A stretch of 64,000 nucleotides of DNA from an uncultured Cytophagia bacterium (GTDB lineage: Bacteria; Zhuqueibacterota; Zhuqueibacteria; Oceanimicrobiales; Oceanimicrobiaceae), in assembly GCA_964539665.1 (NCBI GenBank), contig CAZIKB010000003.1, forward strand, positions 60,062 to 124,061. The letters are read 5' to 3'. The notes beneath the pieces were generated by a model that made no database searches, had not been told where the DNA came from, and saw nothing but the letters and a program-made list of their open reading frames with translations. How positions within the stretch are numbered: position 1 is the stretch's first letter; each line of letters begins with the position of its first letter. Both the position numbers and the translations under genes were made by a program. This document shows, piece by piece, positions 17,172 to 57,559 of this stretch.

Positions 17172-18608
17172 GTGGTTAAAGGCTGTATGATTTCCCGGGC
17201 GACAATTTTATTGATGACCAGCCAGGTCATCTTTTTATTTTCCGGCTTTCTGATAAATTCTGGATTAGCCCGCATTTTCAAACCAATAGATTATGGCACC
17301 TTTGGACTCGTCATGTCTATTTTGGTGATTGTTGAGTTGTTTGTAATTACAGGCATTCCTGAAGCCATTCAAAAATTTGGCGGGGAACGTCCCGAGGTAA
17401 TGTCGAAGCTAATTTCCAAAACACTTCCCTGGCAAATAGTTTATGCCATAATTGTTTTTCTGATTTTTTGGTTAATTGCCCCCTTGTTGTCCAATATTTT
17501 TGGGGACTCTGAGTTAACATTTTATTTAAGAATAGCTGGAATTGACATAATCATTTATGGTTTGTATAAATATTTTTTGGGAGTGCAAAATGGCCTGCAT
17601 CGATTTTTTCACTACACGATATTAGGCATTACCTATTCTCTGGCAAAGTTAGCTGCCATTCTTGGTTTAGTCTGGTTAGGATTCTCCATATCCGGAGCGC
17701 TGGTTGGCAATATTATCGGCTCAGTGCTTGCCCTGATTTTAGCTTTTATGTTTTCACGGGTTCCTGAATCTGAAGTGGAATTAGAATCGAGATCCTATAC
17801 TTCTTTTGTAATTCAGAATGTGTTTTATTTTGTTGGTTTAAATCTGTTTTTTTCAATTGATCTTTGGTTTGTAAAATATTATATACCAGGAGCCGGGGTA
17901 GGTTTATATGTTTCTGCTTCGGTTTTAGCAAAAGTGACCTATTTGATATCGGTGGCTCTTTCGGCTGTTTTGCTGCCTTCTTTGTCCAGAACCATCAAAT
18001 TGCAACAACAGCAAAGAACCAATGCGCTTATTAAAGACTCGCTACGTTATCTCATGATTTTTTTAGTTTTAATAAATACAGTCATAATTATTAATTCAAC
18101 CGGGATCATCAAGTTGTTTTTTGGTGATGATTACATAGCGGCTGCCTCTGTTTTAAGTATTTTAATAGTAGGCCTGTCTTTCTTTACTATGATGGCAATA
18201 ATCAACACAATCATGATTGCTAACAATCAAATGCGGGCCAGTTTAGTTCTTATATTAGGCCTGCTAATTTTGGATTGCATCTTAAATCGAATATTAGTGC
18301 CTCACTATCAATTGTACGGTGCAGCTATCGCAACAGCAACAGTTGGCTTGCTTGGAACGATTTTAGGCGGATTATATGTTTTTAAAGAATTCAAATCTCT
18401 CATAATATCTTTCTCCTTGGTACGCTTAACAGCCATCACTCTATTTGTCTTTTTTATCGCAAATTTAATGAATCAAATACATATAGATGTGATATTAAAA
18501 TCGGTGCTTTTGGGGAGTATTTTTTTATTTCTATTGTGGCTAACCAGGGAAATAACTTCCGTTGATTTACGTCGATTTAAAGAGTCTCTTGGATTTTCAA
18601 ATACTTAA
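17172..18608 (+). CDS. polysaccharide/oligosaccharide flippase (Wzx-like, MOP superfamily); start may be ATG 17187
   Basis: About 12-14 TM helices across 478 aa, the typical polysaccharide-biosynthesis-protein layout. GTG at 17172, ATG at 17187. Confidence 0.75.
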   Translation: MVKGCMISRATILLMTSQVIFLFSGFLINSGLARIFKPIDYGTFGLVMSILVIVELFVITGIPEAIQKFGGERPEVMSKLISKTLPWQIVYAIIVFLIFWLIAPLLSNIFGDSELTFYLRIAGIDIIIYGLYKYFLGVQNGLHRFFHYTILGITYSLAKLAAILGLVWLGFSISGALVGNIIGSVLALILAFMFSRVPESEVELESRSYTSFVIQNVFYFVGLNLFFSIDLWFVKYYIPGAGVGLYVSASVLAKVTYLISVALSAVLLPSLSRTIKLQQQQRTNALIKDSLRYLMIFLVLINTVIIINSTGIIKLFFGDDYIAAASVLSILIVGLSFFTMMAIINTIMIANNQMRASLVLILGLLILDCILNRILVPHYQLYGAAIATATVGLLGTILGGLYVFKEFKSLIISFSLVRLTAITLFVFFIANLMNQIHIDVILKSVLLGSIFLFLLWLTREITSVDLRRFKESLGFSNT

Positions 18609-18698: not shown

Positions 18699-20384
18699 AT
18701 GATTAGTTCTAACTTTAATAATAAACTCGCGAAGAGATTAATTTATTTATGGCTGTTGGGCTGTCTGTGTATTGGTGGATTCCTACGTTTTTATCAATTG
18801 GGCGGTCCAAGTGTTTGGGTTGACGAGTTGAATCACCTTTATGCGGGACAATCATTAATAGAAAACGGCAGCCCGGAGCTCCCTTCCGGACAATTATACG
18901 ATCGCGCATTGATATACTCGAAATTAGTTTCATACTCATTCCAGGTGCTGGGTGTTAATGAATTTAGTTTGCGACTGCCCAGCGCAATAATTGGCCTGTT
19001 ATGTTTAGTTCTAATTTATTTCGTAGCAAAACGTTTTTTTGGAGTAACTCCAGCACTGTTATCTGTATTATTTTTAGCTATTTCGCCGTTTGAGATTGGT
19101 TGGTCACGAATTTCAAGAATGTACACGCTATTCCAGTTTTTATTCCTCCTGGGAATTTATACTTTTTATCTTGGTTTTGAAAGTGAAAACAAAGATACGT
19201 TTTCGAGAGTACAAACGAATATATTAAAGCGGTTCACAGCGGGGGGAATTATTAATTTCATAGAAAGTTGGAATCTCAATCTTATTTGGCTATCAATTTC
19301 AGTCATATTTCTAACGGTATCCTACTTTGTGCATCAGCTCACTGCCTTATTTTTTGTTGGAATTCTGTTTTATTTAGCGCTCATGTTTTTAGTACAATGG
19401 CGTAATGAAAGTTTTTTGCAGGCGCTAAAGGGGAAATATTTCATACTTTTGGTTTTATCGCTGGGCATGACGGGGATTATGATTTTAGTTGTTCCCGGAA
19501 TAATTGCATTTGTGCAATACGCTGTTTTATATTCGCCCAAATGGGCTGCCATGCCTAAATTCCAAAATCCCAAACTTTATCTTGATTTTATTTTTGACCA
19601 ATATAATTTTCCCATGGGAGTGTTGTTTGTATTAGGCATCTACCAGGTGATGAGCAGGTTACATCGATTTGGATATTATATTGTTTCTATTTTCATGGCT
19701 TGTCTGTTACTGTTTACATTTGTTTTTTCTTACCGGCATTTGCAGTATTTGTACAATATTTATCCAATATTAATTATAGTCAGCGCTTACGCATTTTCAA
19801 ATATTGTCAATAGTGAATCAGGAAGAATTAAAACAGCCTGGTTCAAAAAGAGTCGATTAAATGATGTGATTTTTAAGGCGCTCATTGTTTGTTGTTTTTT
19901 AGTCTGGATTCCACTGACTCCATCCTTACGGTTAGCAAGGCGTATTCCATTCTCTAAGGATGGCGGTTTCAATGGCGCTGTTTTTTTGACGGAACATCGA
20001 CAGGCTTGCAATTACATACGAGAAAATTGCAGAAATGATGATCTGATAATATCATCAGACGCATTGGGAACACTTTACTATCTGGAGCGAGTCGATTATG
20101 ATCTTAATTTTGCAGATTTTGATCTTTCAAAAGAAAAAGATTTAAAAAATAATCAGGGAGAATATTTTGATCTTTACTCTGGAAAACCGTTCTTACAAAG
20201 TGTGTCGCAGTTACAAACCTTAATGGAACAATACAACTCTATTTGGCTGGTCTCTGAAGACTATAAATTTTCCCGGGCGCCAGTTTATGTACCGACCCCT
20301 ATTCGGGAATTTGTTTTAGCTAATTTTGAAAAAGTATTCACAACAAAGAATGGTACTATTTTAGTGTTTCATTTTTCCAAATAA
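18699..20384 (+). CDS. GT-C fold glycosyltransferase (ArnT/PMT-like, GT39/GT83-type)
   Basis: Polytopic N-terminal region with the first-loop motif VWVDELNHLYAG (DE motif) and a soluble C-terminal domain. Confidence 0.75.
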   Translation: MISSNFNNKLAKRLIYLWLLGCLCIGGFLRFYQLGGPSVWVDELNHLYAGQSLIENGSPELPSGQLYDRALIYSKLVSYSFQVLGVNEFSLRLPSAIIGLLCLVLIYFVAKRFFGVTPALLSVLFLAISPFEIGWSRISRMYTLFQFLFLLGIYTFYLGFESENKDTFSRVQTNILKRFTAGGIINFIESWNLNLIWLSISVIFLTVSYFVHQLTALFFVGILFYLALMFLVQWRNESFLQALKGKYFILLVLSLGMTGIMILVVPGIIAFVQYAVLYSPKWAAMPKFQNPKLYLDFIFDQYNFPMGVLFVLGIYQVMSRLHRFGYYIVSIFMACLLLFTFVFSYRHLQYLYNIYPILIIVSAYAFSNIVNSESGRIKTAWFKKSRLNDVIFKALIVCCFLVWIPLTPSLRLARRIPFSKDGGFNGAVFLTEHRQACNYIRENCRNDDLIISSDALGTLYYLERVDYDLNFADFDLSKEKDLKNNQGEYFDLYSGKPFLQSVSQLQTLMEQYNSIWLVSEDYKFSRAPVYVPTPIREFVLANFEKVFTTKNGTILVFHFSK

Positions 20385-20435: not shown

Positions 20436-21548
20436 TTGAGCGAATCGAAATTGAAAATTGCAATTATGGGTATTCGGGGTATTCCTGCAAATTATGGCGG
20501 CTTTGAAACTTTCGCGGAACAACTTGCTCCCCTATTAGTTCAACGCGGGCATGATGTTACGGTTTATGGGCGCTCCAATTGTATTAAATATGAAAATCAG
20601 TATTATAAGGGAGTGCGATTGGTCATCCTGCCGACTATTTCCCATAAATATCTTGATACGGTTGCTCACACATTATTCTGTGCCATCCATGCCTTAAAAG
20701 AACGATTTGATGTGATTTTAATGTGTAACAGTGCAAATGCCTACTGTGCATTCATACCGCGCCTTGTTGGCACGCCGGTAGCGCTCAATGTCGACGGCCT
20801 GGAATGGAAACGCTCAAAATGGAATAAACTCGGACAATGGTTCTACCTCATTTCTGAAAGGCTGGCCACATTTACAGCGACAGAATTGGTTTCCGACGCC
20901 CGTGAAATCGAAAAATATTATCAGGATAAATTTAACAAATCTTCGACATTTATTCCTTATGGCGCTCCCACAGATAAAGTCGAGTCCCTGGAGGTTTTAA
21001 AGCAATTCGATTTACAGCCTCAACAGTATGTGCTTTATGTCAGCAGATTGGAACCGGAAAATAATGCACACCTGGTCGTAAAAGCTTTTGAAAATGTTAA
21101 AACGGATTTGAAATGTGTGATAGTAGGCGACGCGCCTTATAATGGGGAGTATATTCAAAATTTAAAAAAGACCAAGGATCCGCGGATCATTTTTACAGGC
21201 TATGTGTTTGGTAAAGGTTATCGGGAATTGCAGTCAAATGCCTATTTTTATGTACAGGGAACAGAAGTAGGCGGAACTCATCCGGCTCTGCTCGAGGGTA
21301 TGGGACACGGCAATTGTGTCTTAGCCAATGATGTTCCGGAACATCGGGAGGTTTTAGGAGATTCAGGAGTATATTTCAGCTCCAGGGAAAATGGCGGGCT
21401 TTCTGAAAAAATGCAGTACCTCCTTGATCATCCTGAATTAGTGAATGAATATGGTCAAAAAGCAGTTTCGAGAATTAAGAAATATTATTCATGGGATAAA
21501 GTCACAGAGGAGTATGAGAACTTATTTTATCAATTATCAAAGAAATAA
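20436..21548 (+). CDS. GT-B glycosyltransferase with DUF1972-type N-terminus (TTG start at 20436 or 20451)
   Basis: KIAIMGIRGIPANYGGFETFAEQLAP, the DUF1972 hallmark. C-terminal GT1 region EVGGTHPALLEGMGHGNCVLA. Confidence 0.8.
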   Translation: MSESKLKIAIMGIRGIPANYGGFETFAEQLAPLLVQRGHDVTVYGRSNCIKYENQYYKGVRLVILPTISHKYLDTVAHTLFCAIHALKERFDVILMCNSANAYCAFIPRLVGTPVALNVDGLEWKRSKWNKLGQWFYLISERLATFTATELVSDAREIEKYYQDKFNKSSTFIPYGAPTDKVESLEVLKQFDLQPQQYVLYVSRLEPENNAHLVVKAFENVKTDLKCVIVGDAPYNGEYIQNLKKTKDPRIIFTGYVFGKGYRELQSNAYFYVQGTEVGGTHPALLEGMGHGNCVLANDVPEHREVLGDSGVYFSSRENGGLSEKMQYLLDHPELVNEYGQKAVSRIKKYYSWDKVTEEYENLFYQLSKK

Positions 21549-21551: not shown

Positions 21552-22610
21552 ATGATTTCTAAATTAGTTTTAGAAGATGGTTCGGTATATACTGGTGAGG
21601 CTTTTGGCGATCTCAAATCTGTGGCGGGCGAAGTCGTGTTCAACACTGGAATGGTGGGATACCCTGAGTGCATGACAGATCCTTCCTATGAAGGTCAAAT
21701 TCTTATTTTCACCTATCCGCTTATCGGCAACTATGGTGTTCCATCTGCTCAGGGTGGAAATGGTTTGTTGGAACAAAATTTTGAATCAGATAGAATCCAT
21801 ATTGCCGGTTTGGTTGTGTCTGAACATTCCAGAGATTTTAGCCACTGGAAAGGCCAATCAAATTTAGACACCTGGCTTAAGTCAAATCAAGTCCCGGGGA
21901 TAAGCGGCATAGACAGCCGTTTATTGACTCAAAAGTTGCGAGAAAAAGGCTCAATGCTGGGTAAGTTGGTTACTCACCATCATGATGTTGATTTTAAAGA
22001 TCCAAATCTGGAAAATTTAGTGGCGAGAGTTTCTCCAAATAAACCCATTGAATATGGCAATGGTAGTAAGAGAGTGCTGGTTGTCCATTGTGGATGTAAA
22101 TTAAATATCATCCGCTGCCTTTTAAAAAGAAATGTTTCTGTTTTAGCAGTGCCATGGGATTGGGAAATCGGCAAAGAACAGTTTGATGGAGTGGTAATTT
22201 CTAATGGACCTGGCGATCCAAAGATGTGTGATGTTACCATAAGAAACATCCGGAAATTATTTGATCGAGACCTGCCAGTTTTCGGTATCTGTTTAGGTAA
22301 TCAGATTCTTGCTTTAGCTGCAGGGGCGGATACATATAAGCTAAAATATGGACACAGAAGCCAGAATCAACCCTGTATACTTGTAGGAAGTAAACGTTGT
22401 TATATTACTTCGCAGAATCATGGCTATGCGGTTGATGAAAAGTCTTTGACAGCAGATTGGGAACCCTGGTTTTTTAACGCCAATGATGGCACTAATGAAG
22501 GCATCCGAAATCGCACCAAGCCGTTTTTTGGAGTACAATTTCATCCAGAGGCTTCACCCGGCCCTCTCGATACCAGTTATCTTTTTGATGAATATATAAA
22601 ATTGTTATAA
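21552..22610 (+). CDS. carA: carbamoyl-phosphate synthase small (glutaminase) subunit
   Basis: VFNTGMVGYPECMTDPSYEGQILIFTYPLIGNYGVP; catalytic FGICLGNQIL and FGVQFHPEASPGP. Confidence 0.95.
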   Translation: MISKLVLEDGSVYTGEAFGDLKSVAGEVVFNTGMVGYPECMTDPSYEGQILIFTYPLIGNYGVPSAQGGNGLLEQNFESDRIHIAGLVVSEHSRDFSHWKGQSNLDTWLKSNQVPGISGIDSRLLTQKLREKGSMLGKLVTHHHDVDFKDPNLENLVARVSPNKPIEYGNGSKRVLVVHCGCKLNIIRCLLKRNVSVLAVPWDWEIGKEQFDGVVISNGPGDPKMCDVTIRNIRKLFDRDLPVFGICLGNQILALAAGADTYKLKYGHRSQNQPCILVGSKRCYITSQNHGYAVDEKSLTADWEPWFFNANDGTNEGIRNRTKPFFGVQFHPEASPGPLDTSYLFDEYIKLL

Positions 22611-22611
22611 T

Positions 22612-25600
22612 ATGGAAAATCTCCCCAAAAAAGTTATCGTATTAGGAAGCTCTGCGCTCAAAATTGGTGAAGCTGGAGAATTCGATTATTCTGGCAGCCA
22701 GGCTATTAAAGCTTTAAAGGAAACCGGAATCCAAACCGTTTTGGTGAATCCAAATATTGCTACAATTCAAACCTCGGAACATTTAGCAGATCAGGTGTAC
22801 TTTTTACCTGTGAATGCATATTTTACTGAGAAGATTATTGAGAAAGAAAAACCAGATGGGATTTTGCTTGCTTTCGGTGGTCAAACAGCGCTCAACTGTG
22901 GGCTTGAATTGTCAAAGAATGGCGTATTTGAAAAGCATAATCTAAGAATATTAGGTAGTCCTCTGAAAGCCATTCAAGAAACAGAAGATCGTGGTCTATT
23001 TGTAAAACGCTTACGGGAAATTGAAGTTGATGTACCTCGAAGCGTGGCGGTTAATTCTACTGAGGAAGCTTTAGCAACGGCTCGAAAAATCGGCTACCCT
23101 GTGATGATTCGAATTGCTTTTGCTTTGGGCGGGCTTGGTTCAGGGATTTGTGTCTCTGAAAACGAGATCAGGGAATTGGCGGATAAGGCTTTTTCATTTA
23201 CCAACCAGATACTTATTGAGGAATACCTGCAGGGCTGGAAAGAAGTCGAATACGAAGTTGTTCGTGATGTTTATAATAATTGCATCACTGTTTGTAATAT
23301 GGAGAATTTTGATCCCTTGGGCATACATACTGGCGAAAGTATTGTAGTTGCACCGAGCCAAACCTTGAATAACCATGAATATCATCGACTCCGTGAAATC
23401 TCTATTCGGGTTGTTCGACACATTGGAATTGTCGGAGAATGTAATGTGCAGTTTGCATTAAATCCTCTGACCGGGGATTACCAGGTCATAGAAGTGAATG
23501 CACGTTTGTCACGAAGCTCTGCCCTGGCCTCAAAAGCAACGGGCTATCCATTGGCATTCATTGCAGCAAAACTGGCCTTAGGATTTGGTTTGACTGATTT
23601 AAAGAATTCGATTACCCAAACAACCATGGCCTGTTTTGAACCAGCTTTAGATTATGTTGTGGTGAAAATTCCTCGCTGGGATTTAAAGAAGTTTCACCGG
23701 GTTTCCACAAGGATTGGCTCTGGCATGAAATCTGTGGGCGAAGTCATGGCCATCGGGCGGTCGTTTGAAGAGGCATTGCAAAAAGCTTTAAGAATGCTGG
23801 ACATTGGGGTTTCAGGTCTGACCGGTAATGACCATCTGGAATTTGAAGATGTGAAAACCGAATTAACTCATCCCACGGACGAGCGCATTTTCGCGATTGT
23901 AAGTGCGTTCAAAGCGGGTATCTCAATTGAAGAAGTCCATAAATTAACCAACATTGACAACTGGTTTCTTTATAAGATCCAACATATACTTCAAGTTGAG
24001 AAGTTGCTTAATGGATATAAAAGTGGTATTTGTCCAAGAGGCACATTATTAGAGGCTAAACGCGCTGGCTTTTCTGATTGTCAGATTGCAAAAAATTTAG
24101 ATTGCCATGATGACGATGTTCGGCGTATGCGCAAGAATTATGGTATCAAGCCTTGCGTGAAACAAATCGACACCCTGGCTGCTGAATATCCGGCACAAAC
24201 AAATTATCTCTACCTAACCTACAATGGCGAGTCTGATGATATCGATTTTCAAATAACAAATTCTGTGATTGTACTGGGTTCCGGAGTGTACCGAATCGGC
24301 AGCTCTGTCGAGTTTGATTGGTGCTGCGTTAACGCAGTTATGACTTTAAGAGAACTGGGCTACAAAACCATTCTTATAAATTATAATCCGGAAACTGTAA
24401 GTACGGACTATGATGAATGTGACCGATTGTATTTTGATGAACTTAGCTTTGAAACCATTTTTGATATTTATGAAAAAGAAAAACCACATGGAGTGATCAT
24501 TTCCATGGGAGGGCAAATTCCAAACAATTTAGCCATGAAATTTCATCAGGCAGGCATGAATGTTTTGGGAACGACCTCTCAAAATATTGATAATGCAGAG
24601 GACCGACACAAATTTTCAACTTTATTAGATACGCTAAAAATTGATCAGCCTGAATGGAACGAACTGGTTTCGACAGAGGAGGCAAAAGCGTTTGCCAAAA
24701 AAGTTAATTACCCGGTATTGGTTCGTCCTTCTTATGTTTTAAGCGGCGCTGCTATGGGAGTGGCCTCGACTGATGTGGAGCTTACCAAGCTGTTAGAAAG
24801 AGCCGCGGAAATTTCCTCTGAATTTCCTGTCGTTATCAGTAAATTTTTGGAGAACGCCAAAGAAATTGAATTTGATGGAGTGGCTCAAAAAGGTGAGTTA
24901 ATTGTTTATGCAATTTCAGAACATGTGGAGAACGCCGGGGTGCATTCCGGCGATGCTACATTGGTTTTACCGCCTCAAAGAACTTACATCGAAACCATTC
25001 GACAGGTGCGCAGCATTTCCAGAAAAATAGCCCAGGCTCTGCAAATAACCGGCCCGTTTAATATGCAATTCATCGCTAAAAATAACGATGTGAAAGTAAT
25101 AGAATGCAATTTAAGAGCTTCACGAAGTTTTCCTTTCGTTTCAAAGGTTGTTAAGGTTAATTTTATTGATATCGCCACTCGTGTTCTTTTAGGTGAAATC
25201 GTGCCTAAAAGTGATAAATCATTTATGGAGCTCGAATATGTTGGAGTTAAAGCTCCGCATTTTTCCTTTACCCGTCTACAGGGTGCGGATCCTACCCTGG
25301 GCGTTGAAATGGCCTCAACAGGCGAAGTAGGCTGCCTGGGAGATGACTTTGAAGAAGCGTTTCTTAAAGCGTTAATTTCAGTTGGATTTAAATTACCTGT
25401 CCGTTCAATTTTAATTTCGACTGGTCCCCTTGAAAACAAAGCCGAATTTATTTCCAGCGCAAAAATACTCATGGATTTAGGTGTAAGAATATATTCCACT
25501 AAAGGAACTTCAGAATTTATGAAGCAATACGGAATAGACACCGATATTCTATATTGGCCTCTGGAGAAAAAGAGCCCGAATGTTTTAGAATATTTAAGTA

Positions 25601-25806
25601 ATAATAAAATTGATTTGGTAATTAATATTCCAAAAAATTATCAGGAAGAAGAACTGACTAACGATTATATCATTCGTCGCCATGCAGTAGATTATGGCAT
25701 TCCATTGATTACTAATTTGCAGCTTGCCAGACGATTCGTTGAGGCTATGTCAAGAAAAGCGCCATCTGAATTACAAATCAAAAGTTGGGGGGATTACGAG
25801 TTATGA
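22612..25806 (+). CDS. carB: carbamoyl-phosphate synthase large subunit
   Basis: 1064 aa with duplicated ATP-grasp halves (GSSALKIGEAGEFDYSGSQA; GSGVYRIGSSVEFDWC) and an MGS-like C-terminal domain. Confidence 0.95.
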   Translation: MENLPKKVIVLGSSALKIGEAGEFDYSGSQAIKALKETGIQTVLVNPNIATIQTSEHLADQVYFLPVNAYFTEKIIEKEKPDGILLAFGGQTALNCGLELSKNGVFEKHNLRILGSPLKAIQETEDRGLFVKRLREIEVDVPRSVAVNSTEEALATARKIGYPVMIRIAFALGGLGSGICVSENEIRELADKAFSFTNQILIEEYLQGWKEVEYEVVRDVYNNCITVCNMENFDPLGIHTGESIVVAPSQTLNNHEYHRLREISIRVVRHIGIVGECNVQFALNPLTGDYQVIEVNARLSRSSALASKATGYPLAFIAAKLALGFGLTDLKNSITQTTMACFEPALDYVVVKIPRWDLKKFHRVSTRIGSGMKSVGEVMAIGRSFEEALQKALRMLDIGVSGLTGNDHLEFEDVKTELTHPTDERIFAIVSAFKAGISIEEVHKLTNIDNWFLYKIQHILQVEKLLNGYKSGICPRGTLLEAKRAGFSDCQIAKNLDCHDDDVRRMRKNYGIKPCVKQIDTLAAEYPAQTNYLYLTYNGESDDIDFQITNSVIVLGSGVYRIGSSVEFDWCCVNAVMTLRELGYKTILINYNPETVSTDYDECDRLYFDELSFETIFDIYEKEKPHGVIISMGGQIPNNLAMKFHQAGMNVLGTTSQNIDNAEDRHKFSTLLDTLKIDQPEWNELVSTEEAKAFAKKVNYPVLVRPSYVLSGAAMGVASTDVELTKLLERAAEISSEFPVVISKFLENAKEIEFDGVAQKGELIVYAISEHVENAGVHSGDATLVLPPQRTYIETIRQVRSISRKIAQALQITGPFNMQFIAKNNDVKVIECNLRASRSFPFVSKVVKVNFIDIATRVLLGEIVPKSDKSFMELEYVGVKAPHFSFTRLQGADPTLGVEMASTGEVGCLGDDFEEAFLKALISVGFKLPVRSILISTGPLENKAEFISSAKILMDLGVRIYSTKGTSEFMKQYGIDTDILYWPLEKKSPNVLEYLSNNKIDLVINIPKNYQEEELTNDYIIRRHAVDYGIPLITNLQLARRFVEAMSRKAPSELQIKSWGDYEL

Positions 25807-27620
25807 ACATATTAGGTATATCTTGTTTTTATCATGACAGCGCCGCCTGTTTAGTGCAGGATGGTGAAATTGTTGCCGCAGCACAGGAAGAAAGGTTTAC
25901 CCGTAAAAAGCATGATCAGGAGTTTCCCCAAAATGCCATTAATTTTTGTCTGGATTATGCAAAAATCGATGTCAAGGATTTAGATTTTGTAGCTTTCTAT
26001 GATAAACCTTTCTTGAAATTCGAGCGAATATTAGAGACCTATCTTGCCTTTACTCCAAAAGGAATTACGTCATTTTTAATGGCCATCCAATTATGGATTA
26101 AGCGAAAGCTCTGGATCCCTGACTTAATTCGCAAAGAACTTGGGTATGATGGGAAAATAATTTATCCGGAACATCATGAATCACATGCTGCGTCGGCATT
26201 TTTCCCCTCTCCATATCAAGAGGCTGCGTTTATAACCATGGACGGCGTCGGCGAATGGACCACCACATCTTACGGTGTTGGCAAAGACAATAAAGTAAGT
26301 ATTCTTGCTGATTTACAATTCCCGCATTCATTAGGATTGTTGTATTCGGCATTCACATACTTTACTGGATTTAGGGTCAATTCAGGGGAATATAAAGTAA
26401 TGGGTTTGGCTCCCTATGGAGAACCAAAGTATGTCCAGGCTATTCGGGACAATTTAATCGATATTAAAGAAGACGGTTCCTATAAAATGAACATGGAATA
26501 TTTCGATTACTGTTCCGGATTAAAGATGACAAATGGCAAGTTTGATAAAATATTTGGCGGACCGCCAAGAAAGCGAGAGTCGAAACTGGCGCAGCGAGAG
26601 ATGGACCTGGCGCGTTCGGTGCAGGAAATTACTGAAGAAATTATGCTTAAAACTGCGCGTCATGTTCATGACGAAACCGGGCAGAAGTATTTGTGCCTGG
26701 CTGGCGGGGTGGCCCTCAATTGTGTTGGCAACGGAAGAATTCTACGAGAAGGTCCATTTGAGGATATCTGGATTCAGCCCGCCGCTGGAGACGCCGGGGG
26801 GGCTCTGGGAGCTGCACTGTTTACCTGGCACCAATATTTAGACAATAATCGACAAAGCAATGGCAGAGATGAGTTACAAAAAGGATCGTATTTAGGCCCT
26901 GAATATAGCGATAATGACATCCAAAGCTTTTTAGACGAACATAAAATACCCTATCAAAAAATAAACTCTGAAGAGTTACCCACAATAATCGCTGATGTAA
27001 TTATTAATGAAAAAGTTGTCGGCTGGTTTCAAGGCAGGATGGAGTTTGGTCCGAGAGCGCTCGGCAGCCGTTCAATTATTGGCGATGCACGTTCGTCTGA
27101 GATGCAAAAAGTTATGAATCTTAAAATCAAATTCAGAGAAAGTTTCAGGCCATTTGCTCCATCGGTTTTAGAAGAGCGGGTGTCCGATTATTTTGAGATT
27201 GACAGAGCAAGCCCATATATGCTTTTGGTTGCGCCTGTAAATAAAAATATACGGCGCAACATGACCGAAGAAGAACAAAATTTATTTGGCATTGATAAAC
27301 TTAATATAGCCCGTTCAGAAATACCGGCCATTACGCACGTTGATTATTCGGCGCGAATTCAGACTGTTGATTGTCGTACCAATCCACTTTATCATAAACT
27401 GATTTCAGCAGTGGAGTCTAAAACTGGATGTCCTGTTATCATCAATACCTCTTTTAATGTGCGTGGCGAACCCATCGTGTGTACACCTTTAGACGCCTAT
27501 AAATGTTTTATGCGCACAGAAATGGATTATCTTTGTATGGGTAATTTTCTTTTGGATAAAAAACAACAGCCAGAGTTTCATGATGATATTAACTGGCAAG
27601 AAAAATATGAGTTAGATTAA
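25803..27620 (+). CDS. carbamoyltransferase (NodU/CmcH family), copy 1
   Basis: [18 protein letters not shown]...[13 protein letters not shown]...[10 protein letters not shown]...[13 protein letters not shown]...[12 protein letters not shown]. Its ATG overlaps the carB TGA (ATGA). Confidence 0.9.
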   Translation: [605 protein letters not shown]

Positions 27621-27621
27621 T

Positions 27622-28059
27622 ATGAATTTAATCGATGACATAAAGTTTGAAATAACAAAGTTAAAAGAAGATAAGAGCACCTTAAGAAAATTTGCAATTA
27701 CCATAGCATCCGCACTTTGCATTATAGGTGCTTTAGTATTCTTTCTTGGAAGCAGGGCAGAGACCGCATTCTGGTTATGGGGATTTGGATCATCCATTTT
27801 AATATTAGGTATCACGGTTCCCAATGTCTTAAAGCCATTTCACCTATTGTGGATGACATTGGCCTTTGTTTTAGGTTGGTTTGTATCACGCTTAATTCTA
27901 AGCATAGTTTTTTATTTAGTGATGACACCCATCGGATTAGTAATGAAAATCATCGGAAAAGATCTGATAAATCAAAAGCTTGAAAAGAATAATTTATCTT
28001 ACTGGATAAAACGTGACCCGGTAAATAGGAATCCTGAAAGTTATGAAAAATTATTCTAA
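27622..28059 (+). CDS. SxtJ-family small membrane protein
   Basis: Two or three TM helices and the C-terminal pattern LVMTPIGLVMKIIGKDLINQK...SYWIKRD, as in SxtJ-like proteins that follow carbamoyltransferases. Confidence 0.65.
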   Translation: MNLIDDIKFEITKLKEDKSTLRKFAITIASALCIIGALVFFLGSRAETAFWLWGFGSSILILGITVPNVLKPFHLLWMTLAFVLGWFVSRLILSIVFYLVMTPIGLVMKIIGKDLINQKLEKNNLSYWIKRDPVNRNPESYEKLF

Positions 28060-28068
28060 GAGGTTGAC

Positions 28069-28227
28069 ATGAGCAAAATCTCAATAATAAAAGAATTTAG
28101 TCAATTTCTTATTTATAGAAAAAAATGGTGGTTAACTCCAATTGTAATTGTATTATTGCTGCTTGGTGCTTTAATCATTTTGACTGAAGGCAGTGCATTG
28201 GCACCGTTCATTTACACCTTATTTTAG
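28069..28227 (+). CDS. DUF5989-like 52-aa membrane peptide (absent from the ORF track because it is <60 aa)
   Basis: MSKISIIKEFSQFLIYRKKWWLTPIVIVLLLLGALIILTEGSALAPFIYTLF. ATG lies 9 nt after the SxtJ stop. The RKKWWL + single TM + APFIYTLF pattern is typical of the peptide found after carbamoyltransferase-SxtJ pairs. Confidence 0.6.
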   Translation: MSKISIIKEFSQFLIYRKKWWLTPIVIVLLLLGALIILTEGSALAPFIYTLF

Positions 28228-30785: not shown

Positions 30786-32477
30786 ATGCTTCAATTAAAT
30801 AAATATCTAAATTTGAAAAAAAATAATAAAAATAAATCAGTGCAATTAGTGCTTTTTATTACAGTCGTGGGTATAATCTTTCGATTATTTCTAATGCGCT
30901 ATAGATTTGCTGTTGGATTTGATGAAGTTAATTATTTAAAACTTGGAGTGAGCGGTCACTTGAACGGATTATCCGATATTCTACATACTTACTGGTCACC
31001 GCTTCTACCGATGCTAATTTCATTCTCGAGTGGAATTTTTGATAATTATGAATTTGCTGGTCGTATTATATCAATTTTAGCCGGAACATTATTAGTAATT
31101 CCGGTTTATAGCCTGGGCAAATATGTTTATGATGAGAAAATCGGACTGATTGCGGCTGGATTTGTTGCTATTTATCCACCATTGGCTTTTCAAGCAACGA
31201 ATGTCAAGACAGAACCTGTTTATATGCTTTTCGCAATCATTGCAATTATTTTTGGCCTGCGAATGTTAAATCGAGAATCAAAGGGATTTGCCTTTCTTGC
31301 CGGATTATTTTCAGGTTTAGCTTATCTTACCCATCCCCAGGGTATGGGCTTTTGTATTGTGATTGCGTTTTGGATTTTATTTAGTACCTTGTTCAGGCTC
31401 TATGCATTTCGATTTCGACGAATGATTGTGCTGTTCGCTATTTTGAGTTTTGGTTTTATCATTATTGCTGCTCCTTATTTAATTTATTTGAAAAAGGCAA
31501 CCGGAGGCTGGACTTTAAGCGCCAAAGGCGCTGCAAATCAGCAAATGGAGGCTCACGTGAGTGAAGAAGGGCAAGATGCGTTTCGAGCGCTGGATGCAAG
31601 TAACAAAAACGTGCTCTTCGATCAAATTTTTCATAAAGGTGATTTCTTGGATGCAACCAATGATGGAACGGATCCTGTGACAGTAGTCAGGCTCGGCCCG
31701 CTCTTTTTCAAGTATATTGAGAACCTGGCAAACATGTTAAAAGGTACAATTCCGGAATTTTTTACTACCCTGCCGATGATTCTTTTGGGAATCGGTTTGT
31801 TTGGAGAAAGATGGCAATCCCAACAAGGCAAAATCATCCTGTATCTTGTAAGCTTCATTGTGTTTTTTTGGTTAATATTAATTCCATTGTTTCATCTCAA
31901 TTTAAGGTACCTTTCACCACTCTGGCCGCTCTGTGCAATATGGATTGCAAAAGGCGCCAGCCACATATATGGTTGGTTAGCATCTTATATGCCGTTGGTA
32001 AACTTTTCGAAGAGATTTGATAACAAATTAAATTCTAATACTGTTGCAGTGGTTATTATTCTTGCAGTTTTTTTTAGTTTGACTTTTCTGCCGGAATTGG
32101 GACGTGTTATATCAAGACGTTCAGATACGAGAGAATACTGGGGTGATGCTGTAGATCAAAAAAAAGCAGGCCTTTGGATAAAAGAAAAAATGCCTGGAGA
32201 TAAGTCAATTATGAGTTATAATCATGCGGTAAGTTTTTATGCCGGCAGCTATGATATTAGCCAATCTATTGAAATTCCTGATAATGGGATAGAACGCATT
32301 TTGAAATACGCAAAGTATAGAAAAGTAAATTTACTTGTTCTAAATGAAAGATATAAAATAGTTTTTCCCAGAATCAATTATTTATTAAGTTCTGAAAATG
32401 TCCCGGATGGACTTGAATTAGTTTATCAGGATATGGATCGTTCAGGACTAAAAACCGTGATATATAAAATATTGTAA
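30786..32477 (+). CDS. GT-C fold glycosyltransferase (ArnT/PMT-like), copy 2
   Basis: Polytopic protein with the first-loop motif VGFDEVNYLKLG. Size and architecture match 18699..20384. Confidence 0.7.
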   Translation: MLQLNKYLNLKKNNKNKSVQLVLFITVVGIIFRLFLMRYRFAVGFDEVNYLKLGVSGHLNGLSDILHTYWSPLLPMLISFSSGIFDNYEFAGRIISILAGTLLVIPVYSLGKYVYDEKIGLIAAGFVAIYPPLAFQATNVKTEPVYMLFAIIAIIFGLRMLNRESKGFAFLAGLFSGLAYLTHPQGMGFCIVIAFWILFSTLFRLYAFRFRRMIVLFAILSFGFIIIAAPYLIYLKKATGGWTLSAKGAANQQMEAHVSEEGQDAFRALDASNKNVLFDQIFHKGDFLDATNDGTDPVTVVRLGPLFFKYIENLANMLKGTIPEFFTTLPMILLGIGLFGERWQSQQGKIILYLVSFIVFFWLILIPLFHLNLRYLSPLWPLCAIWIAKGASHIYGWLASYMPLVNFSKRFDNKLNSNTVAVVIILAVFFSLTFLPELGRVISRRSDTREYWGDAVDQKKAGLWIKEKMPGDKSIMSYNHAVSFYAGSYDISQSIEIPDNGIERILKYAKYRKVNLLVLNERYKIVFPRINYLLSSENVPDGLELVYQDMDRSGLKTVIYKIL

Positions 32478-32484
32478 ATTAAAA

Positions 32485-33882
32485 ATGACAGGTTTAATAT
32501 TTAATTCAGAAATTGTTTATTTTGGGCTCGTAGTGGTCATTTTTACCCTGGGATTTATAATGTTCTCTAATCACGCTTATTTTCTTTTGGCGGCAGGCAC
32601 AATATCAGCGGCCTTTCAGGGTGGTCTGTGGATTCCGTCATTCAATACAGATTTCTATTTGAGCTTTATTATCTTCAGCATTCTTTTAGTCTATTCCTAT
32701 GTAAATCCTAAAAGCAATAATGGAATACGGTATAATAACAAAGTTATGATCTTTGCCTGGCTTGGTGTATTTCTTTTTTCGATATTTGCCATCACAAAGG
32801 CACTGGATGTAAGCAAGGCACGCCAGGCAATTATCTTGTTTTCTATCGATTTAGTGATATTTTTTGCAATATGGCGAACTGTTCGAACTCCCAAGGATGT
32901 TCAATTTTTTATTGCCTGCCTAATAGCAGCTTTAATTGTTCAGAGTATGATTGGTATGCTGCAATACAAAATCCCACTTTTTAAAATTGGCATTATTGAT
33001 CAGGTTCTGGCAGAGGGTAAAACAAAATGGTACCGCGCTAAAGGTACGTTTTATCATCCCAATGGATTTGGAATGTATATAATGATTATGCTGCCCATTG
33101 CGTACCGTGGCTTAATTAACGCATACATGCAAAAAAATATAAAGTGGCGTTTTTATTGTATCGTGGGATTGACATTTGGAATTGTTGCGCTGCTGGCCTC
33201 ATTTAATCGTGGTTCCTGGGCGGGTTTATTTGTTGGATTCTTTATAATGTGTATGGTAGATTTTTTTCGTCGAAAGAAAAAAATTACCAAAGTACTTTCA
33301 AATTTAATTGTTGCTGCCTTTATCTTTGGTACCATAATTTCGATTAAATTTGCCCCGGTTGTGTTAGAACGAATATATGGGGCCGATGCTGATGAACAAG
33401 TTGAAAACAGATCTTCTCAGATGGTTGAGGCAACTGAATTGATTAAGCAAAATCCATTTATAGGAGTAGGGTATGGCAATGATCTATTTTATGCCGCACA
33501 GATATTTGTGCATAACCTTTATTTATTGATCGCTGCTGAAGCTGGCATTCCTGGATTGATCTTTTTCTTATGGTTTTTGATTGAATTATTTAGGGAAACC
33601 TGGAGGACAAGCGGATCGCAAATTATCTATTGTGCTAATTACTCTCGTGGTTTTATCGCATCACTAATAGGTTTTTGTATTTCTTCCTGGGTAGGTCCCG
33701 ATTTTTGGATACATTATGGAGTTCAATCATATTTCTGGCTTTTAGTTAGTCTTGTGTTTGTTGTAGGGCGGTTAGATCGAAATTTAATATATAAACAAAA
33801 AATGATGCAAAAGCGACAAAGAGAGACGGTTGCACACAATAACATACCAGTTTTGATGAGTACAAGCGGATATCCTAAATAA
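32485..33882 (+). CDS. O-antigen ligase / Wzy-like polymerase family membrane protein
   Basis: About 10-12 TM helices, FNRGSWAGLFVGFF motif and a large loop with GVGYGN. Confidence 0.7.
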   Translation: MTGLIFNSEIVYFGLVVVIFTLGFIMFSNHAYFLLAAGTISAAFQGGLWIPSFNTDFYLSFIIFSILLVYSYVNPKSNNGIRYNNKVMIFAWLGVFLFSIFAITKALDVSKARQAIILFSIDLVIFFAIWRTVRTPKDVQFFIACLIAALIVQSMIGMLQYKIPLFKIGIIDQVLAEGKTKWYRAKGTFYHPNGFGMYIMIMLPIAYRGLINAYMQKNIKWRFYCIVGLTFGIVALLASFNRGSWAGLFVGFFIMCMVDFFRRKKKITKVLSNLIVAAFIFGTIISIKFAPVVLERIYGADADEQVENRSSQMVEATELIKQNPFIGVGYGNDLFYAAQIFVHNLYLLIAAEAGIPGLIFFLWFLIELFRETWRTSGSQIIYCANYSRGFIASLIGFCISSWVGPDFWIHYGVQSYFWLLVSLVFVVGRLDRNLIYKQKMMQKRQRETVAHNNIPVLMSTSGYPK

Positions 33883-35746: not shown

Positions 35747-35776
35747 GAGATTTCGATTCGATTGTGTGACTTTATT

Positions 35777-37219
35777 ATGAGCCGAGAGAACAAGTTTTTT
35801 AAAAATACACTCGCAATTTCGTTAGCACATGGACTGCAACCTTTTCTTTCTTTAGTATTATCGCTGGCAATAGCTCGACTGCTGGGCAAGGAAAGTTTTG
35901 GAGTCTATGCAACTATATTTTATTTGATTGCGATTTTCGAGATGATAAGTTCTTTAGGGGTGAAAACGGTTTTAACTCGCGAAGTAGCAAAAGATAAATC
36001 ATCTGCTTCAAATTACATCACAAGCAGTGTCATAGTTACGTTCGCGTTATCCATACTGGCCATTATTTTACTACATATTACTGTTCGGTCTATCAAGTAT
36101 GATGATATAATTTTGCAACCAGTTTACATCCTGGCCTGGTCTCTGATTGCTTCTGGAATTGCAGATTCTTTAGAAGGAATACTGCAAGGTTTGGAGAAAA
36201 TTCAAGCCATCGCGAGCGCCTGGATGATTGAGCAGATACTACGTGTGGCCGTAAGTCTCTTTATTATCTACAATGGATATGGCATAATTGAATTGGCGCT
36301 GGTTTATGCTGTGATACGCTATGTTTACCCTGTGCTTCTTTATTGGATGTTAATGAGGACGACAAAAAAAATAAGGTGGCAGCCGGACTTAAATTTAGTA
36401 AAAAAATTATTTTCAGCAACAAGAGTTTTTGGCCCAATAATGATTTTTGTTTCTGTATACTGGCGAATAGATTCTATTATATTAGCTAAGGTTTTAGATC
36501 TTAAGGATGTAGGCATTTATAATGCCGGCAATAAACTTTTTTGGTTTTTTATTATTCTGGTACGAAGTTTCTTTGCATCTTTTTATCCACTTGTTTCTGA
36601 TATATTTGCTAATCGAGCTTCACGGTTTGAAATTGTATGCAAGAAATCTATATTCTATTTATTGGCCTTACTGGTACCGATTGCTGTATCTATTACACTG
36701 TTTTCCGAACAAATTATAACAACATTGTGGGGCCAACAATACATTGGAGCGGGCACTGTTTTACAAATATTAATTTGGTGTACATTGCCATACGCTGTGT
36801 CCAAAGTGTTCGCGTATGCCTTTATCTCGAGCAATTTGCAGCGTTTTGATCTTTGGGTAAACATTATAGGGGTGGCTTTTAAAGTTACAATATTTACAAT
36901 AATGATAAATTTATATGGAGTTGTAGGTGGAGCCTGGGCAAATTTGATTGGCATGTTTTTTGTAGTGGTGATACAGTTGCCATTTGTTATGAATTATTTA
37001 TTTAAGTTTGAACTCAGTTCTATGTTAATGCCTTGTGTAAAACTTTTAATTGCTGTTTTTTCGATGTTTGTAATAGGAAAATTGTTCCCACATGTTAATT
37101 TCATTTTGATGGGAGTCGTAATAAATGTTATTTATTTTGCAACTTTATTTCTAATAAAAGTATTCAATGATGAAGATAAGTTACTTTTTCGTAAGTTATT
37201 ACATCTTAGCAGGACATAG
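35777..37219 (+). CDS. polysaccharide flippase (Wzx-like, MOP superfamily), copy 2
   Basis: About 12-14 TM helices. ATG at 35777 is preferred over TTG at 35762 in the same frame. Confidence 0.75.
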   Translation: MSRENKFFKNTLAISLAHGLQPFLSLVLSLAIARLLGKESFGVYATIFYLIAIFEMISSLGVKTVLTREVAKDKSSASNYITSSVIVTFALSILAIILLHITVRSIKYDDIILQPVYILAWSLIASGIADSLEGILQGLEKIQAIASAWMIEQILRVAVSLFIIYNGYGIIELALVYAVIRYVYPVLLYWMLMRTTKKIRWQPDLNLVKKLFSATRVFGPIMIFVSVYWRIDSIILAKVLDLKDVGIYNAGNKLFWFFIILVRSFFASFYPLVSDIFANRASRFEIVCKKSIFYLLALLVPIAVSITLFSEQIITTLWGQQYIGAGTVLQILIWCTLPYAVSKVFAYAFISSNLQRFDLWVNIIGVAFKVTIFTIMINLYGVVGGAWANLIGMFFVVVIQLPFVMNYLFKFELSSMLMPCVKLLIAVFSMFVIGKLFPHVNFILMGVVINVIYFATLFLIKVFNDEDKLLFRKLLHLSRT

Positions 37220-48590: not shown

Positions 48591-48611
48591 AAATCGAATT
48601 ATTGGGAGCAA

Positions 48612-57435: not shown

Positions 57436-57461
57436 GGCGTTAGAGGAAACACGCTGAGGAT

Positions 57462-57494: not shown

Positions 57495-57559
57495 CCAATT
57501 TTAAATTAAAATCAATTAATTAGTTGTAATGATATAAATTTTATGGAGGTTTCAATTTT

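What the first reader, a model, noticed from the sequence alone, without database searches (positions are those of the whole stretch)
21552..28227. carAB embedded in the EPS locus, its stop codon overlapping the start of a carbamoyltransferase-SxtJ-DUF5989 cassette
Full-length carA and carB sit between glycosyltransferase genes. The carB stop overlaps the carbamoyltransferase start (ATGA at 25803-25806). SxtJ follows 1 nt later and a 52-aa DUF5989-like peptide 9 nt after that. This arrangement suggests carbamoyl phosphate is produced for polysaccharide O-carbamoylation rather than, or in addition to, arginine and pyrimidine synthesis. The roles of the SxtJ and DUF5989 partners of such carbamoyltransferases are, as far as I know, undefined.
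Basis: partly seen in the sequence, partly recalled or inferred. Interest (0 to 1): 0.6.

Follow-up and report, generated by a model that had tools for sequence, protein, structure and literature searches.

The report
carAB beside a carbamoyltransferase cassette
The genes that make carbamoyl phosphate sit inside a large surface-polysaccharide gene cluster and run directly into an enzyme cassette that consumes it, an arrangement that recurs in related bacteria, so supply and use of this unstable donor are probably coupled, although the genes look like the cell's ordinary copy rather than a special one.

Summary
carA (21552-22610), carB (22612-25806), a TobZ/NodU-type O-carbamoyltransferase (CT1, 25803-27620, ATGA overlap with carB), an SxtJ-like membrane protein and a 52-aa DUF5989 (SxtK-like) peptide are packed with gaps of 3, 1, -4, 1 and 9 nt. 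They lie inside a >60 kb one-strand Wzx/Wzy polysaccharide locus.

In relatives, carAB holds the same slot, GT1(DUF1972)-carA-carB-PMT_2-Wzy-GT1-Wzx. This holds with the CT cassette touching carB, 4.5 kb away, or absent. carAB is therefore a conserved backbone gene and the cassette is a movable decoration module.

Each named MAG checked contributes one CarB of this type, and one close relative carries it outside any glycan locus. The CarB tree broadly follows taxonomy. The pair therefore looks like the lineage's ordinary CPS, not a specialised paralogue. Copy number in the source genome could not be tested.

Linkage is nevertheless non-random. A CT lies within 6.5 kb of carB in 8 of 21 loci in this CarB clade, in at least five gene orders, against 0 of 146 outside it.

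CT-SxtJ-SxtK is the known sxtIJK trio and usually occurs without carAB. My verdict is a new variant of known kinds, of moderate interest.

The parts
17172..18608 (+). Wzx-type flippase (first of two in the window)
   Evidence: Polysacc_synt_3, MurJ and Polysacc_synt matches. 68% identical to the syntenic gene in L001.
18699..20384 (+). PMT_2-family membrane glycosyltransferase. Backbone gene upstream of the GT1-carAB block.
   Evidence: PF13231 match. Same position in L001 and L166.
20436..21548 (+). GT1 glycosyltransferase with a DUF1972 N-terminus. It is the conserved 5' neighbour of carA, and its stop lies 3 nt before the carA start.
   Evidence: Pfam match. 84% identical and in the same position in L001. 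Also immediately 5' of carA in L166, L173 and L175.
21552..22610 (+). carA, the glutamine-hydrolysing small subunit of carbamoyl-phosphate synthase (352 aa)
   Evidence: CPSase_sm_chain plus GATase. TIGR01368 at 447 bits against a cutoff of 307. GICLG cysteine and HPE motif present.
22612..25806 (+). carB, the large subunit of carbamoyl-phosphate synthase (1064 aa). It has both ATP-grasp halves, the oligomerisation domain and the allosteric MGS-like domain.
   Evidence: Pfam matches. TIGR01369 at 1522 bits against a cutoff of 1027. PDB matches to CPS1 and E. coli CarB across residues 6-1049. 85% identical to P0003 and P0004.
25803..27620 (+). CT1, a soluble TobZ/NodU-family O-carbamoyltransferase (605 aa). 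Its start codon overlaps the carB stop (ATGA).
   Evidence: Full-length Carbam_trans_N and Carbam_trans_C matches. PDB homologues are 7xb6, NovN, GdmN and TobZ. No hydrophobic segment.
27622..28059 (+). SxtJ-like small integral membrane protein (145 aa, 3-4 hydrophobic segments). Partner of CT1.
   Evidence: PF19588 match. Hydropathy and alignment across loci. Found next to CT1 homologues in L001, L086, L093, L096, L170-L176.
28069..28227 (+). DUF5989 / SxtK-like 52-aa single-pass membrane peptide with conserved RKKWWL...GSALAPFIYTLF
   Evidence: PF19451 match at 2.7e-24. Alignment of 12 copies from different phyla. sxtK is 165 bp in the sxt clusters (PMC2679770).
28381..29628 (+). GT1 glycosyltransferase. 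It is the backbone gene that sits after Wzy in relatives.
   Evidence: Pfam match. 72% identical to the L001 GT1 at 19273-20502.
30786..33882 (+). PMT_2 (30786-32477) and Wzy_C polymerase (32485-33882). In relatives without an intervening cassette these directly follow carB.
   Evidence: Pfam matches. Order carB-PMT_2-Wzy in L166, L173, L175 and L165.
33947..35746 (+). CT2, a second O-carbamoyltransferase of another subfamily (about 30% identical to CT1 homologues), with no SxtJ/DUF5989 partners
   Evidence: Carbam_trans_N and Carbam_trans_C matches. About 30% identity between CT2 and the L001 CT1 homologue.
35762..37219 (+). Second Wzx-type flippase
   Evidence: Polysacc_synt match.
54799..58183 (+). 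ATP sulfurylase fused to an alkaline-phosphatase-superfamily domain (54799-57435), plus APS kinase (57560-58183). This is in-locus supply of the sulfate donor PAPS and a parallel to in-locus carbamoyl phosphate supply.
   Evidence: Pfam matches.

Best explanation
carAB here is the lineage's ordinary glutamine-dependent carbamoyl-phosphate synthase. In this KSB1/Calditrichota-related family it is a fixed backbone member of a Wzx/Wzy polysaccharide locus: GT1(DUF1972)-carA-carB-PMT_2-Wzy-GT1-Wzx.

The carbamoyltransferase-SxtJ-DUF5989 trio is the widespread sxtIJK-type cassette. It behaves as a movable decoration module within that locus. In this genome it has landed directly 3' of carB and become translationally coupled to it.

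Inferred mechanism:
1. CarAB makes carbamoyl phosphate for arginine and pyrimidine synthesis and also for CT1 (and CT2).
2. CT1, like TobZ, uses carbamoyl phosphate plus ATP to form carbamoyl-AMP in its YrdC-like domain.
3. CT1 transfers the carbamoyl group from its Kae1-like domain to a sugar hydroxyl of the lipid-linked repeat unit on the cytoplasmic face of the membrane.
4. SxtJ (3-4 TM segments) and DUF5989 (1 TM segment) act as its membrane partners.

Co-localising and co-expressing the synthase and the transferase is favoured because carbamoyl phosphate is labile and contested by two major pathways.

Shown: gene identities, spacing, conserved synteny and recurrent linkage. Inferred: the acceptor, the membrane-tether role, dual use of the CPS, and any channelling.
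For: - Identities and spacing.
- Same backbone with carAB in the same slot: L001 has the cassette 0.5 kb after carB. L173 and L175 have it 4.5 kb downstream. L166 and L165 show no cassette. L167 has carA-Sat/CysC-carB followed by a UDP-GlcNAc 2-epimerase.
- Ortholog-like behaviour: L004 CarB is 85% identical but lies in a non-glycan context. The six named NCBI MAG CarB hits come from six different assemblies. The CarB NJ tree places the clade next to Calditrichia, Ignavibacteria and Zixibacteria.
- Recurrent linkage in other lineages and orders: CT-SxtJ-DUF5989-carA-carB in L093 and L096; SxtJ-CT-DUF5989-carA-carB in L170; carA-carB-MTase-SxtJ-DUF5989-CT in L086; carA-carB-MT-MT-x-CT in L094. 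All sit among glycan or modification genes.
- Counts: 8 of 21 loci in the clade against 0 of 146 outside it.
- CT1 is soluble, and SxtJ and DUF5989 are membrane proteins.
- TobZ-type chemistry: PDB homologues and PMC3814370.
- In-locus PAPS supply offers a parallel.
Against: - Copy number of carAB in the source genome is unknown. The genome is in none of the searchable collections.
- A sole housekeeping CPS with only 3 nt between it and the upstream glycosyltransferase has no visible regulatory region of its own. The sigma-70 promoter and terminator scans are at background level and may not apply to this phylum.
- The CT cassette is usually not next to carAB: Brocadia chromosome, S. meliloti pSymB and a Gemmatirosa plasmid. 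Linkage is therefore not required for function.
- In L001 a 490-bp AT-rich spacer with a hairpin separates carB from CT. Translational coupling is specific to this genome.
- No chemistry shows that the polysaccharide is carbamoylated.
Confidence: 0.5

Rival explanations
1. Dedicated paralogue. The locus-embedded carAB is a second, pathway-specific CPS that exists to supply carbamoyl phosphate for glycan carbamoylation. This would be analogous to NodPQ supplying PAPS for Nod-factor sulfation, or to the arginine- and pyrimidine-specific CPS pairs of Bacillus and Lactobacillus. A separate housekeeping CPS or carbamate kinase would lie elsewhere in the genome.
For: - carAB sits in a glycan context in 7 of 8 family members examined.
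- There are no intergenic regulatory regions around it.
- The locus also encodes its own PAPS-supply enzymes.
- In soil-type lineages the five genes form compact modules.
- One such CarB lies on a contig labelled Acidobacteria gp5 yet groups with the KSB1-type CarBs, a hint of transfer.
Against: - No second CarB of 70% identity or more from the same assemblies was found among named hits.
- L004 carries the equally close ortholog outside any glycan locus.
- L166 and L165 keep carAB in the slot with no CT visible.
- The sequence is highly constrained (85% identity) and passes the housekeeping equivalog models.
- The tree broadly follows taxonomy.
Confidence: 0.25
2. Fortuitous synteny. carAB is simply a housekeeping pair that happens to lie in a recombination-prone polysaccharide region. 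The cassette's position next to it has no functional meaning beyond drawing on the common carbamoyl phosphate pool.
For: - carAB is present in the slot without CT (L166, L165).
- The cassette occupies different positions in the locus.
- Most CT-SxtJ-DUF5989 cassettes elsewhere lack carAB.
- None of 146 more distant CarB loci has a CT nearby.
Against: - Direct carAB-CT adjacency appears in at least five gene orders across three CarB subclades.
- 8 of 21 loci have a CT within 6.5 kb of carB. By my own rough estimate, about 1% would be expected for one or two CT genes placed at random in a 4-Mb genome.
- The 4-nt overlap implies co-translation here.
Confidence: 0.2
3. Pyrimidine supply. carAB is kept in the locus to boost UTP, and hence UDP-sugar, synthesis for polysaccharide production rather than for carbamoylation.
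For: Capsule production is tied to uracil/pyrimidine metabolism in S. pneumoniae (PMC5863508, title and abstract seen). carAB persists in loci that lack a CT.
Against: No pyrB or other pyr gene was detected in the window. The five-gene modules in other lineages pair carAB specifically with a carbamoyl phosphate consumer.
Confidence: 0.05

Closest known systems
sxtI-sxtJ-sxtK of cyanobacterial saxitoxin clusters
   Same: It is the same trio: an O-carbamoyltransferase of about 605-612 aa, a small SxtJ membrane protein (PF19588) and a peptide of about 54 aa (sxtK is 165 bp; DUF5989, PF19451). The genes are adjacent and co-oriented. J and K have no defined function (PMC2679770, PMC2684587).
   Different: Here the trio sits in a Wzx/Wzy polysaccharide locus, not a toxin cluster, so the presumed acceptor is a sugar. 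It is fused to carAB, which the sxt gene tables read here do not list. I did not compare sequence identity to SxtI itself.
TobZ / NovN / GdmN / NodU family O-carbamoyltransferases
   Same: It has the two-domain Kae1-like plus YrdC-like architecture over its full length. The best PDB matches are 7xb6, 9s2t (NovN), 7vyj (GdmN) and 3ven (TobZ). The chemistry expected is carbamoyl phosphate plus ATP to carbamoyl-AMP, then transfer (PMC3814370).
   Different: CT1 is not NodU: 141 bits against a cutoff of 1000 for the NodU equivalog model. It belongs to a far more conserved 605-aa subfamily, 72-74% identical across phyla. The acceptor is unknown.
Pathway-specific CPS duplicates (Bacillus subtilis CarAB and PyrAA/AB; Lactobacillus plantarum) and NodPQ-type in-cluster donor supply
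   Same: The idea is the same: a donor-synthesising enzyme is encoded with, and co-expressed with, the pathway that consumes the donor. The window also carries ATP sulfurylase and APS kinase for PAPS. These comparisons rest on my own knowledge and are not cited.
   Different: The defining feature is a second CPS copy in the same genome with separate regulation. That could not be tested, and the indirect evidence points to a single ortholog.
E. coli CarAB and human CPS1 (solved CPS structures)
   Same: All domains align end to end. The glutamine-hydrolysis cysteine and HPE motif are present, unlike in CPS1.
   Different: Sequence is closer to CPS1 than to E. coli CarAB: CarB 1245 against 857 bits, CarA 378 against 248 bits, allosteric domain 99 against 23.5 bits. 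The effector specificity cannot be inferred from E. coli.

Membership tests
Glutamine-dependent carbamoyl-phosphate synthase (CarAB) | Small subunit with a CPSase small-chain domain plus a class I amidotransferase with the catalytic Cys and His-Glu | tested here: met
   Pfam PF00988 and PF00117. TIGR01368 at 447 bits against a cutoff of 307. GICLG and FHPE motifs seen in the alignment.
Glutamine-dependent carbamoyl-phosphate synthase (CarAB) | Large subunit with two ATP-grasp halves, an oligomerisation domain and a C-terminal MGS-like allosteric domain | tested here: met
   CPSase_L_D1 x2, CPSase_L_D2 x2, CPSase_L_D3 and MGS. TIGR01369 at 1522 bits against 1027. Aligned over residues 6-1049 to solved CPS structures.
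Pathway-specific (dedicated) CPS paralogue | A second CPS gene pair in the same genome | not testable with these tools
   The source genome is not in the look-up index or in the genome collection. Indirectly, the six named MAG CarB hits come from six different assemblies.
Pathway-specific (dedicated) CPS paralogue | Locus-linked copies form a clade separate from housekeeping copies of the same lineage | tested here: not met
   L004 CarB (non-glycan context) falls inside the clade of the window and L001, at distance 0.166 against 0.163.
TobZ/NodU/CmcH-type O-carbamoyltransferase | N-terminal Kae1-like and C-terminal YrdC-like domains, both full length | tested here: met
   PF02543 2-346 of 346 and PF16861 1-170 of 170. 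PDB homologues at E-values 1e-73 to 7e-93.
TobZ/NodU/CmcH-type O-carbamoyltransferase | Carbamoyl phosphate- and ATP-dependent carbamoyl transfer to a hydroxyl group | not testable with these tools
   This needs an enzyme assay. Individual metal- and nucleotide-binding residues were not checked.
NodU (Nod-factor 6-O-carbamoyltransferase) equivalog | Score above the NCBIfam NF041651 cutoff | tested here: not met
   CT1 scores 141 bits and CT2 154 bits against a cutoff of 1000.
sxtIJK-type cassette | CT gene adjacent to and co-oriented with an SxtJ (PF19588) gene and a gene for a DUF5989/SxtK peptide of about 50 aa | tested here: met
   for the families and for the spacing. The same trio occurs in 12 other loci from several phyla.
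Wzx/Wzy-dependent polysaccharide locus | Flippase, polymerase and multiple glycosyltransferases and sugar-modifying enzymes in one transcriptional direction | tested here: met
   Two Wzx genes, one Wzy_C, eleven GT1/GT2 genes plus two PMT_2 genes, three epimerase-family genes, AsnB, and acetyl- and methyltransferases, all on the + strand. No initiating transferase or export genes were identified in the window.

The most novel reading that the evidence does not exclude
The locus copy is a dedicated CPS that forms a membrane-associated metabolon with CT1, SxtJ and DUF5989. Labile carbamoyl phosphate is handed directly to the transferase acting on a lipid-linked glycan. This would be a carbamoyl counterpart of NodPQ/NodH. 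It would give the first functional context for the orphan SxtJ/SxtK partners, and it would explain why this 605-aa CT subfamily is 72-74% identical across distant phyla.
Probability: 0.15. Interest if true: 0.6.

Novelty: new variant of a known kind. Interest (0 to 1): 0.4.

Why it matters
Carbamoyl phosphate is unstable and is shared between arginine and pyrimidine synthesis. A recurrent physical link between its synthase and an O-carbamoyltransferase cassette suggests that some bacteria organise donor supply for glycan carbamoylation at the operon level, as they do for sulfation.

The compact five-gene modules also offer a tractable setting for working out what the widespread but uncharacterised SxtJ and SxtK/DUF5989 partners do. 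That question has been open since the saxitoxin clusters were described.

If the pair is only the housekeeping CPS in a conserved neighbourhood, the finding is a useful annotation note and not a new system.

Tried and rejected
- Exact-protein look-ups of the window CarB and of its 100% match P0001 found no contig on record. The source assembly and its other carAB copies could not be examined.
They returned only relatives of 75% identity or less and missed the closest ones seen in the protein search. They still served as a CarB-centred background sample.
- I compared NCBI accessions of the six named CarB hits to look for two copies from one assembly. None were found. This is weak, because unnamed hits and hits below 70% identity were not covered.
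- Sigma-70 promoter and terminator scans of 16.5-31 kb gave counts at shuffle level. I rejected them as evidence either way.
- Rfam and tRNA scans of the whole window found nothing.
- tblastx of the 1.1-kb gaps against all loci found no gene remnants.
- Per-gene GC and GC3 do not mark carAB or the cassette as compositionally foreign.
- The plasmid records carrying CT1 homologues had no usable annotation, so I identified neighbours by tblastn.
- Literature searches for carAB with a carbamoyltransferase in polysaccharide clusters returned nothing relevant, and the search for DUF5989 returned no paper.
- I did not run structure prediction of SxtJ or DUF5989. A fold for such small membrane proteins would be unlikely to discriminate between the hypotheses.

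Full report
**1. Observation**

The window is a single-strand array of polysaccharide genes. It holds methyl-, acetyl- and amidotransferases, eleven GT1/GT2 genes plus two PMT_2 genes, three epimerase-family genes, two Wzx flippases and a Wzy_C polymerase. It also holds several alkaline-phosphatase-superfamily (sulfatase/phosphodiesterase) genes, two glycoside-hydrolase-family genes (GH39 and GHL15), and an ATP sulfurylase plus APS kinase.

- carA, 21552-22610.
- carB, 22612-25806.
- A carbamoyltransferase (CT1), 25803-27620.
- An SxtJ-family protein, 27622-28059.
- A 52-aa DUF5989 peptide, 28069-28227.

The gaps, counted from the upstream GT1 gene, are 3, 1, -4, 1 and 9 nt.

CarA and CarB pass NCBI's equivalog models for glutamine-dependent CPS. 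They carry all domains, including the amidotransferase Cys/His-Glu motifs and the allosteric domain. CT1 is a full-length two-domain TobZ/NodU-family enzyme.

**2. Who the relatives are**

The nearest CarB proteins, at 70-85% identity, come from uncultured MAGs labelled bacterium, KSB1, Caldithrix or Calditrichaeota. I built an NJ tree of 284 CarBs. It places the window in a 138-leaf clade next to Calditrichia, Ignavibacteria and Zixibacteria, so the tree broadly follows FCB-group taxonomy.

**3. carAB is a backbone gene of this locus in the family**

| Locus | CarB identity | Arrangement |
|---|---|---|
| L001 | 85% | GT1(DUF1972)-carA-carB-[490 bp]-CT-SxtJ-DUF5989-PMT_2-Wzy-GT1-Wzx |
| L175 | 83%-type | GT1(DUF1972)-carA-carB-PMT_2-Wzy-GT1-CT-SxtJ-DUF5989-Wzx |
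| L173 | 78%-type | Same as L175 |
| L166 | 82% | Same backbone, no cassette; GT1 is followed directly by Wzx |
| L165 | 81% | carB-DUF559-PMT_2-Wzy-GT1-Wzx-AsnB; region 5' of carB replaced by toxin-antitoxin, HerA and nucleotidyltransferase genes; no carA within 8 kb |
| L167 | 84% | carA-[ATP sulfurylase/APS kinase fusion]-carB, then a UDP-GlcNAc 2-epimerase |
| L004 | 85% | carA-carB between a giant adhesin-like gene and Usp, CitMHS and nuo genes; no glycan genes |

The position of carAB in the locus is therefore conserved over genus- to family-level divergence (locus GC 38-50%). It does not depend on the carbamoyltransferase cassette. The cassette itself behaves as a movable module: touching carB, 4.5 kb away, or absent.

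In the window, the slot between Wzy and the second Wzx, where L173 and L175 carry the CT1 cassette, is occupied by a second carbamoyltransferase of another subfamily (CT2, 33947-35746). It is about 30% identical to CT1 homologues.

**4. Ordinary or dedicated CPS?**

Direct counting was impossible, because the source genome is not retrievable. Four indirect points favour an ordinary ortholog:
- L004, in a non-glycan context, is as close to the window as L001, in the same locus (distances 0.166 and 0.163).
- The six named NCBI CarB hits of 70% identity or more carry accessions from six different assemblies, so no MAG contributes two.
- The tree broadly follows taxonomy.
- The proteins are highly constrained and complete.

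A more divergent second CPS or a carbamate kinase cannot be excluded.

**5. The linkage with carbamoyltransferases is nevertheless not random**

In the CarB-centred samples, a CT lies within 6.5 kb of carB in 8 of 21 loci of the window's CarB clade (245 kb of flank). It does so in 0 of 146 loci outside the clade (2.0 Mb of flank). The window and the CT-ascertained loci L173 and L175 come on top of those eight.

The architectures differ:
- carA-carB-CT-SxtJ-DUF5989 (window, L001).
- CT-SxtJ-DUF5989-carA-carB (L093, L096).
- SxtJ-CT-DUF5989-carA-carB (L170).
- carA-carB-MTase-SxtJ-DUF5989-CT (L086).
- carA-carB-MTase-MTase-x-CT (L094).
- CT(other subfamily)-GT1-MTase-GT1-YdjC-cupin-carA-carB (L168).

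Where flanks are visible they encode DegT aminotransferases, epimerases, GT1/GT2 enzymes and methyltransferases. They are again glycan-type loci, but of higher GC (51-68%) and from soil-type metagenomes. Repeated juxtaposition in different orders is the classic signature of selection for co-localisation.

**6. The cassette is known and usually stands alone**

CT1 belongs to a remarkably conserved 605-aa subfamily. It is 72-74% identical in MAGs labelled Brocadia, Nitrospirae, Nitrospinae, Omnitrophica, CPR and even archaea. It is about 59-62% identical in Sinorhizobium/Ensifer pSymB-type replicons and in a Gemmatirosa plasmid.

In the Brocadia chromosome, S. meliloti pSymB and Gemmatirosa, the CT-SxtJ-DUF5989 trio is present with no carAB within 9-10 kb.

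The trio corresponds to sxtI-sxtJ-sxtK of the saxitoxin clusters. [quoted passage not shown] No paper in the library mentions DUF5989.

**7. Mechanism**

CT1 has no hydrophobic segment. SxtJ has 3-4 hydrophobic segments. DUF5989 has one, followed by an almost invariant GSA(L/V)APFIY(T/A)(L/I)F tail and preceded by RKK(W/F/Y)WL.

TobZ-type enzymes make carbamoyl-AMP from carbamoyl phosphate and ATP in the YrdC-like domain, then transfer it in the Kae1-like domain (PMC3814370). Both substrates are cytoplasmic.

I infer the following steps:
1. CarAB makes carbamoyl phosphate.
2. CT1, held at the inner face of the membrane by SxtJ and DUF5989, O-carbamoylates a sugar of the lipid-linked repeat unit before Wzx flipping.
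3. CT2 adds a second carbamoyl group elsewhere.

The ATP sulfurylase and APS kinase in the same locus show that the locus also carries supply genes for another decoration donor.

The 4-nt overlap implies coupled translation of CarB and CT1 in this genome. In L001, a 490-bp AT-rich spacer with a hairpin separates the two genes, so that coupling is recent and local.

**8. Rivals**

- Dedicated paralogue: 0.25.
- Fortuitous synteny: 0.2.
- Pyrimidine or UDP-sugar supply: 0.05.

These are laid out in the Rival explanations section with their tests.

**9. Novelty and score**

CPS, TobZ-family transferases and the sxtIJK trio are all known. In-cluster donor supply is a known theme.

Two things appear to be undescribed in the library searched:
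- carAB as a conserved member of a Wzx/Wzy locus.
- The recurrent five-gene carAB plus CT-SxtJ-SxtK module.

This is a new variant of known kinds. It is moderately interesting, mainly as a handle on SxtJ/SxtK function and on how a labile donor is provisioned.

The central open point is the carAB copy number, which needs the whole assemblies.

Noticed in passing
window 33947-35746: There is a second O-carbamoyltransferase (CT2) of a different subfamily, about 30% identical to CT1 homologues and without SxtJ/DUF5989 partners. It sits between Wzy and the second Wzx. That is the slot where relatives L173 and L175 carry the CT1 cassette.
   Followed up: partly
window 54799-58183, plus 37249-38628, 43768-47513, 48612-52782 and 58183-59529: An ATP sulfurylase is fused to an alkaline-phosphatase-superfamily domain (878 aa) and is followed by an APS kinase. 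Six further sulfatase/phosphodiesterase-fold genes lie in the locus. This suggests a heavily sulfated or phospho-decorated polysaccharide with its own PAPS supply. The role of the fusion is unknown.
   Followed up: no
L167 149-6707: In a close relative (CarB 84% identical), a bifunctional ATP sulfurylase/APS kinase gene is inserted between carA and carB. A UDP-GlcNAc 2-epimerase follows carB.
   Followed up: partly
window 21552-25806: This CPS scores much closer to human mitochondrial CPS1 than to E. coli CarAB. CarB gives 1245 against 857 bits, CarA 378 against 248 bits, and the allosteric domain 99 against 23.5 bits. It still keeps the catalytic glutamine-hydrolysis cysteine that CPS1 lacks.
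   Followed up: partly
window 25803-27620 and proteins P0127-P0245: The 605-aa CT1 subfamily is 72-74% identical across MAGs labelled Brocadia, Nitrospirae, Nitrospinae, Omnitrophica, CPR and archaea. Across that range it appears at least as conserved as CarB. This points to a very constrained acceptor or partner set, or to frequent transfer.
   Followed up: partly
window 29629-30785 and 47514-48611: Two stretches of about 1.1 kb have no ORF of 120 aa or more, no Rfam or tRNA match, and no clear tblastx similarity to related loci or to other parts of the window; the only hits were one short match to L061 and one weak 62-aa match at window 38437-38622. They lie within an otherwise tightly packed operon-like array.
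   Followed up: partly
L001 13199-13688: The 490-bp AT-rich spacer between carB and CT contains a perfect hairpin (GAAACCTTCCAGGTTTTTAAAACCTGGAAGGTTT). It may be a terminator or a repeat element left by the cassette's insertion.
   Followed up: no
L165 1-8000: In this relative the region 5' of carB is replaced by toxin-antitoxin, HerA-type ATPase, nucleotidyltransferase and hypothetical genes. No carA lies within 8 kb, and a DUF559 gene follows carB. The locus edge at carAB looks like a hotspot for insertions.
   Followed up: no
L171 (S. meliloti 1021 pSymB 483.9-486.4 kb): A model organism carries the SxtJ-DUF5989-CT trio (CT 59% identical to CT1) on pSymB, with no carAB nearby. This offers a genetically tractable place to test SxtJ/SxtK function.
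   Followed up: no
window 17172-18608, 35762-37219, 18699-20384 and 30786-32477: There are two Wzx flippases and two PMT_2 genes in one array. The window may hold two fused or tandem polysaccharide units rather than one.
   Followed up: no
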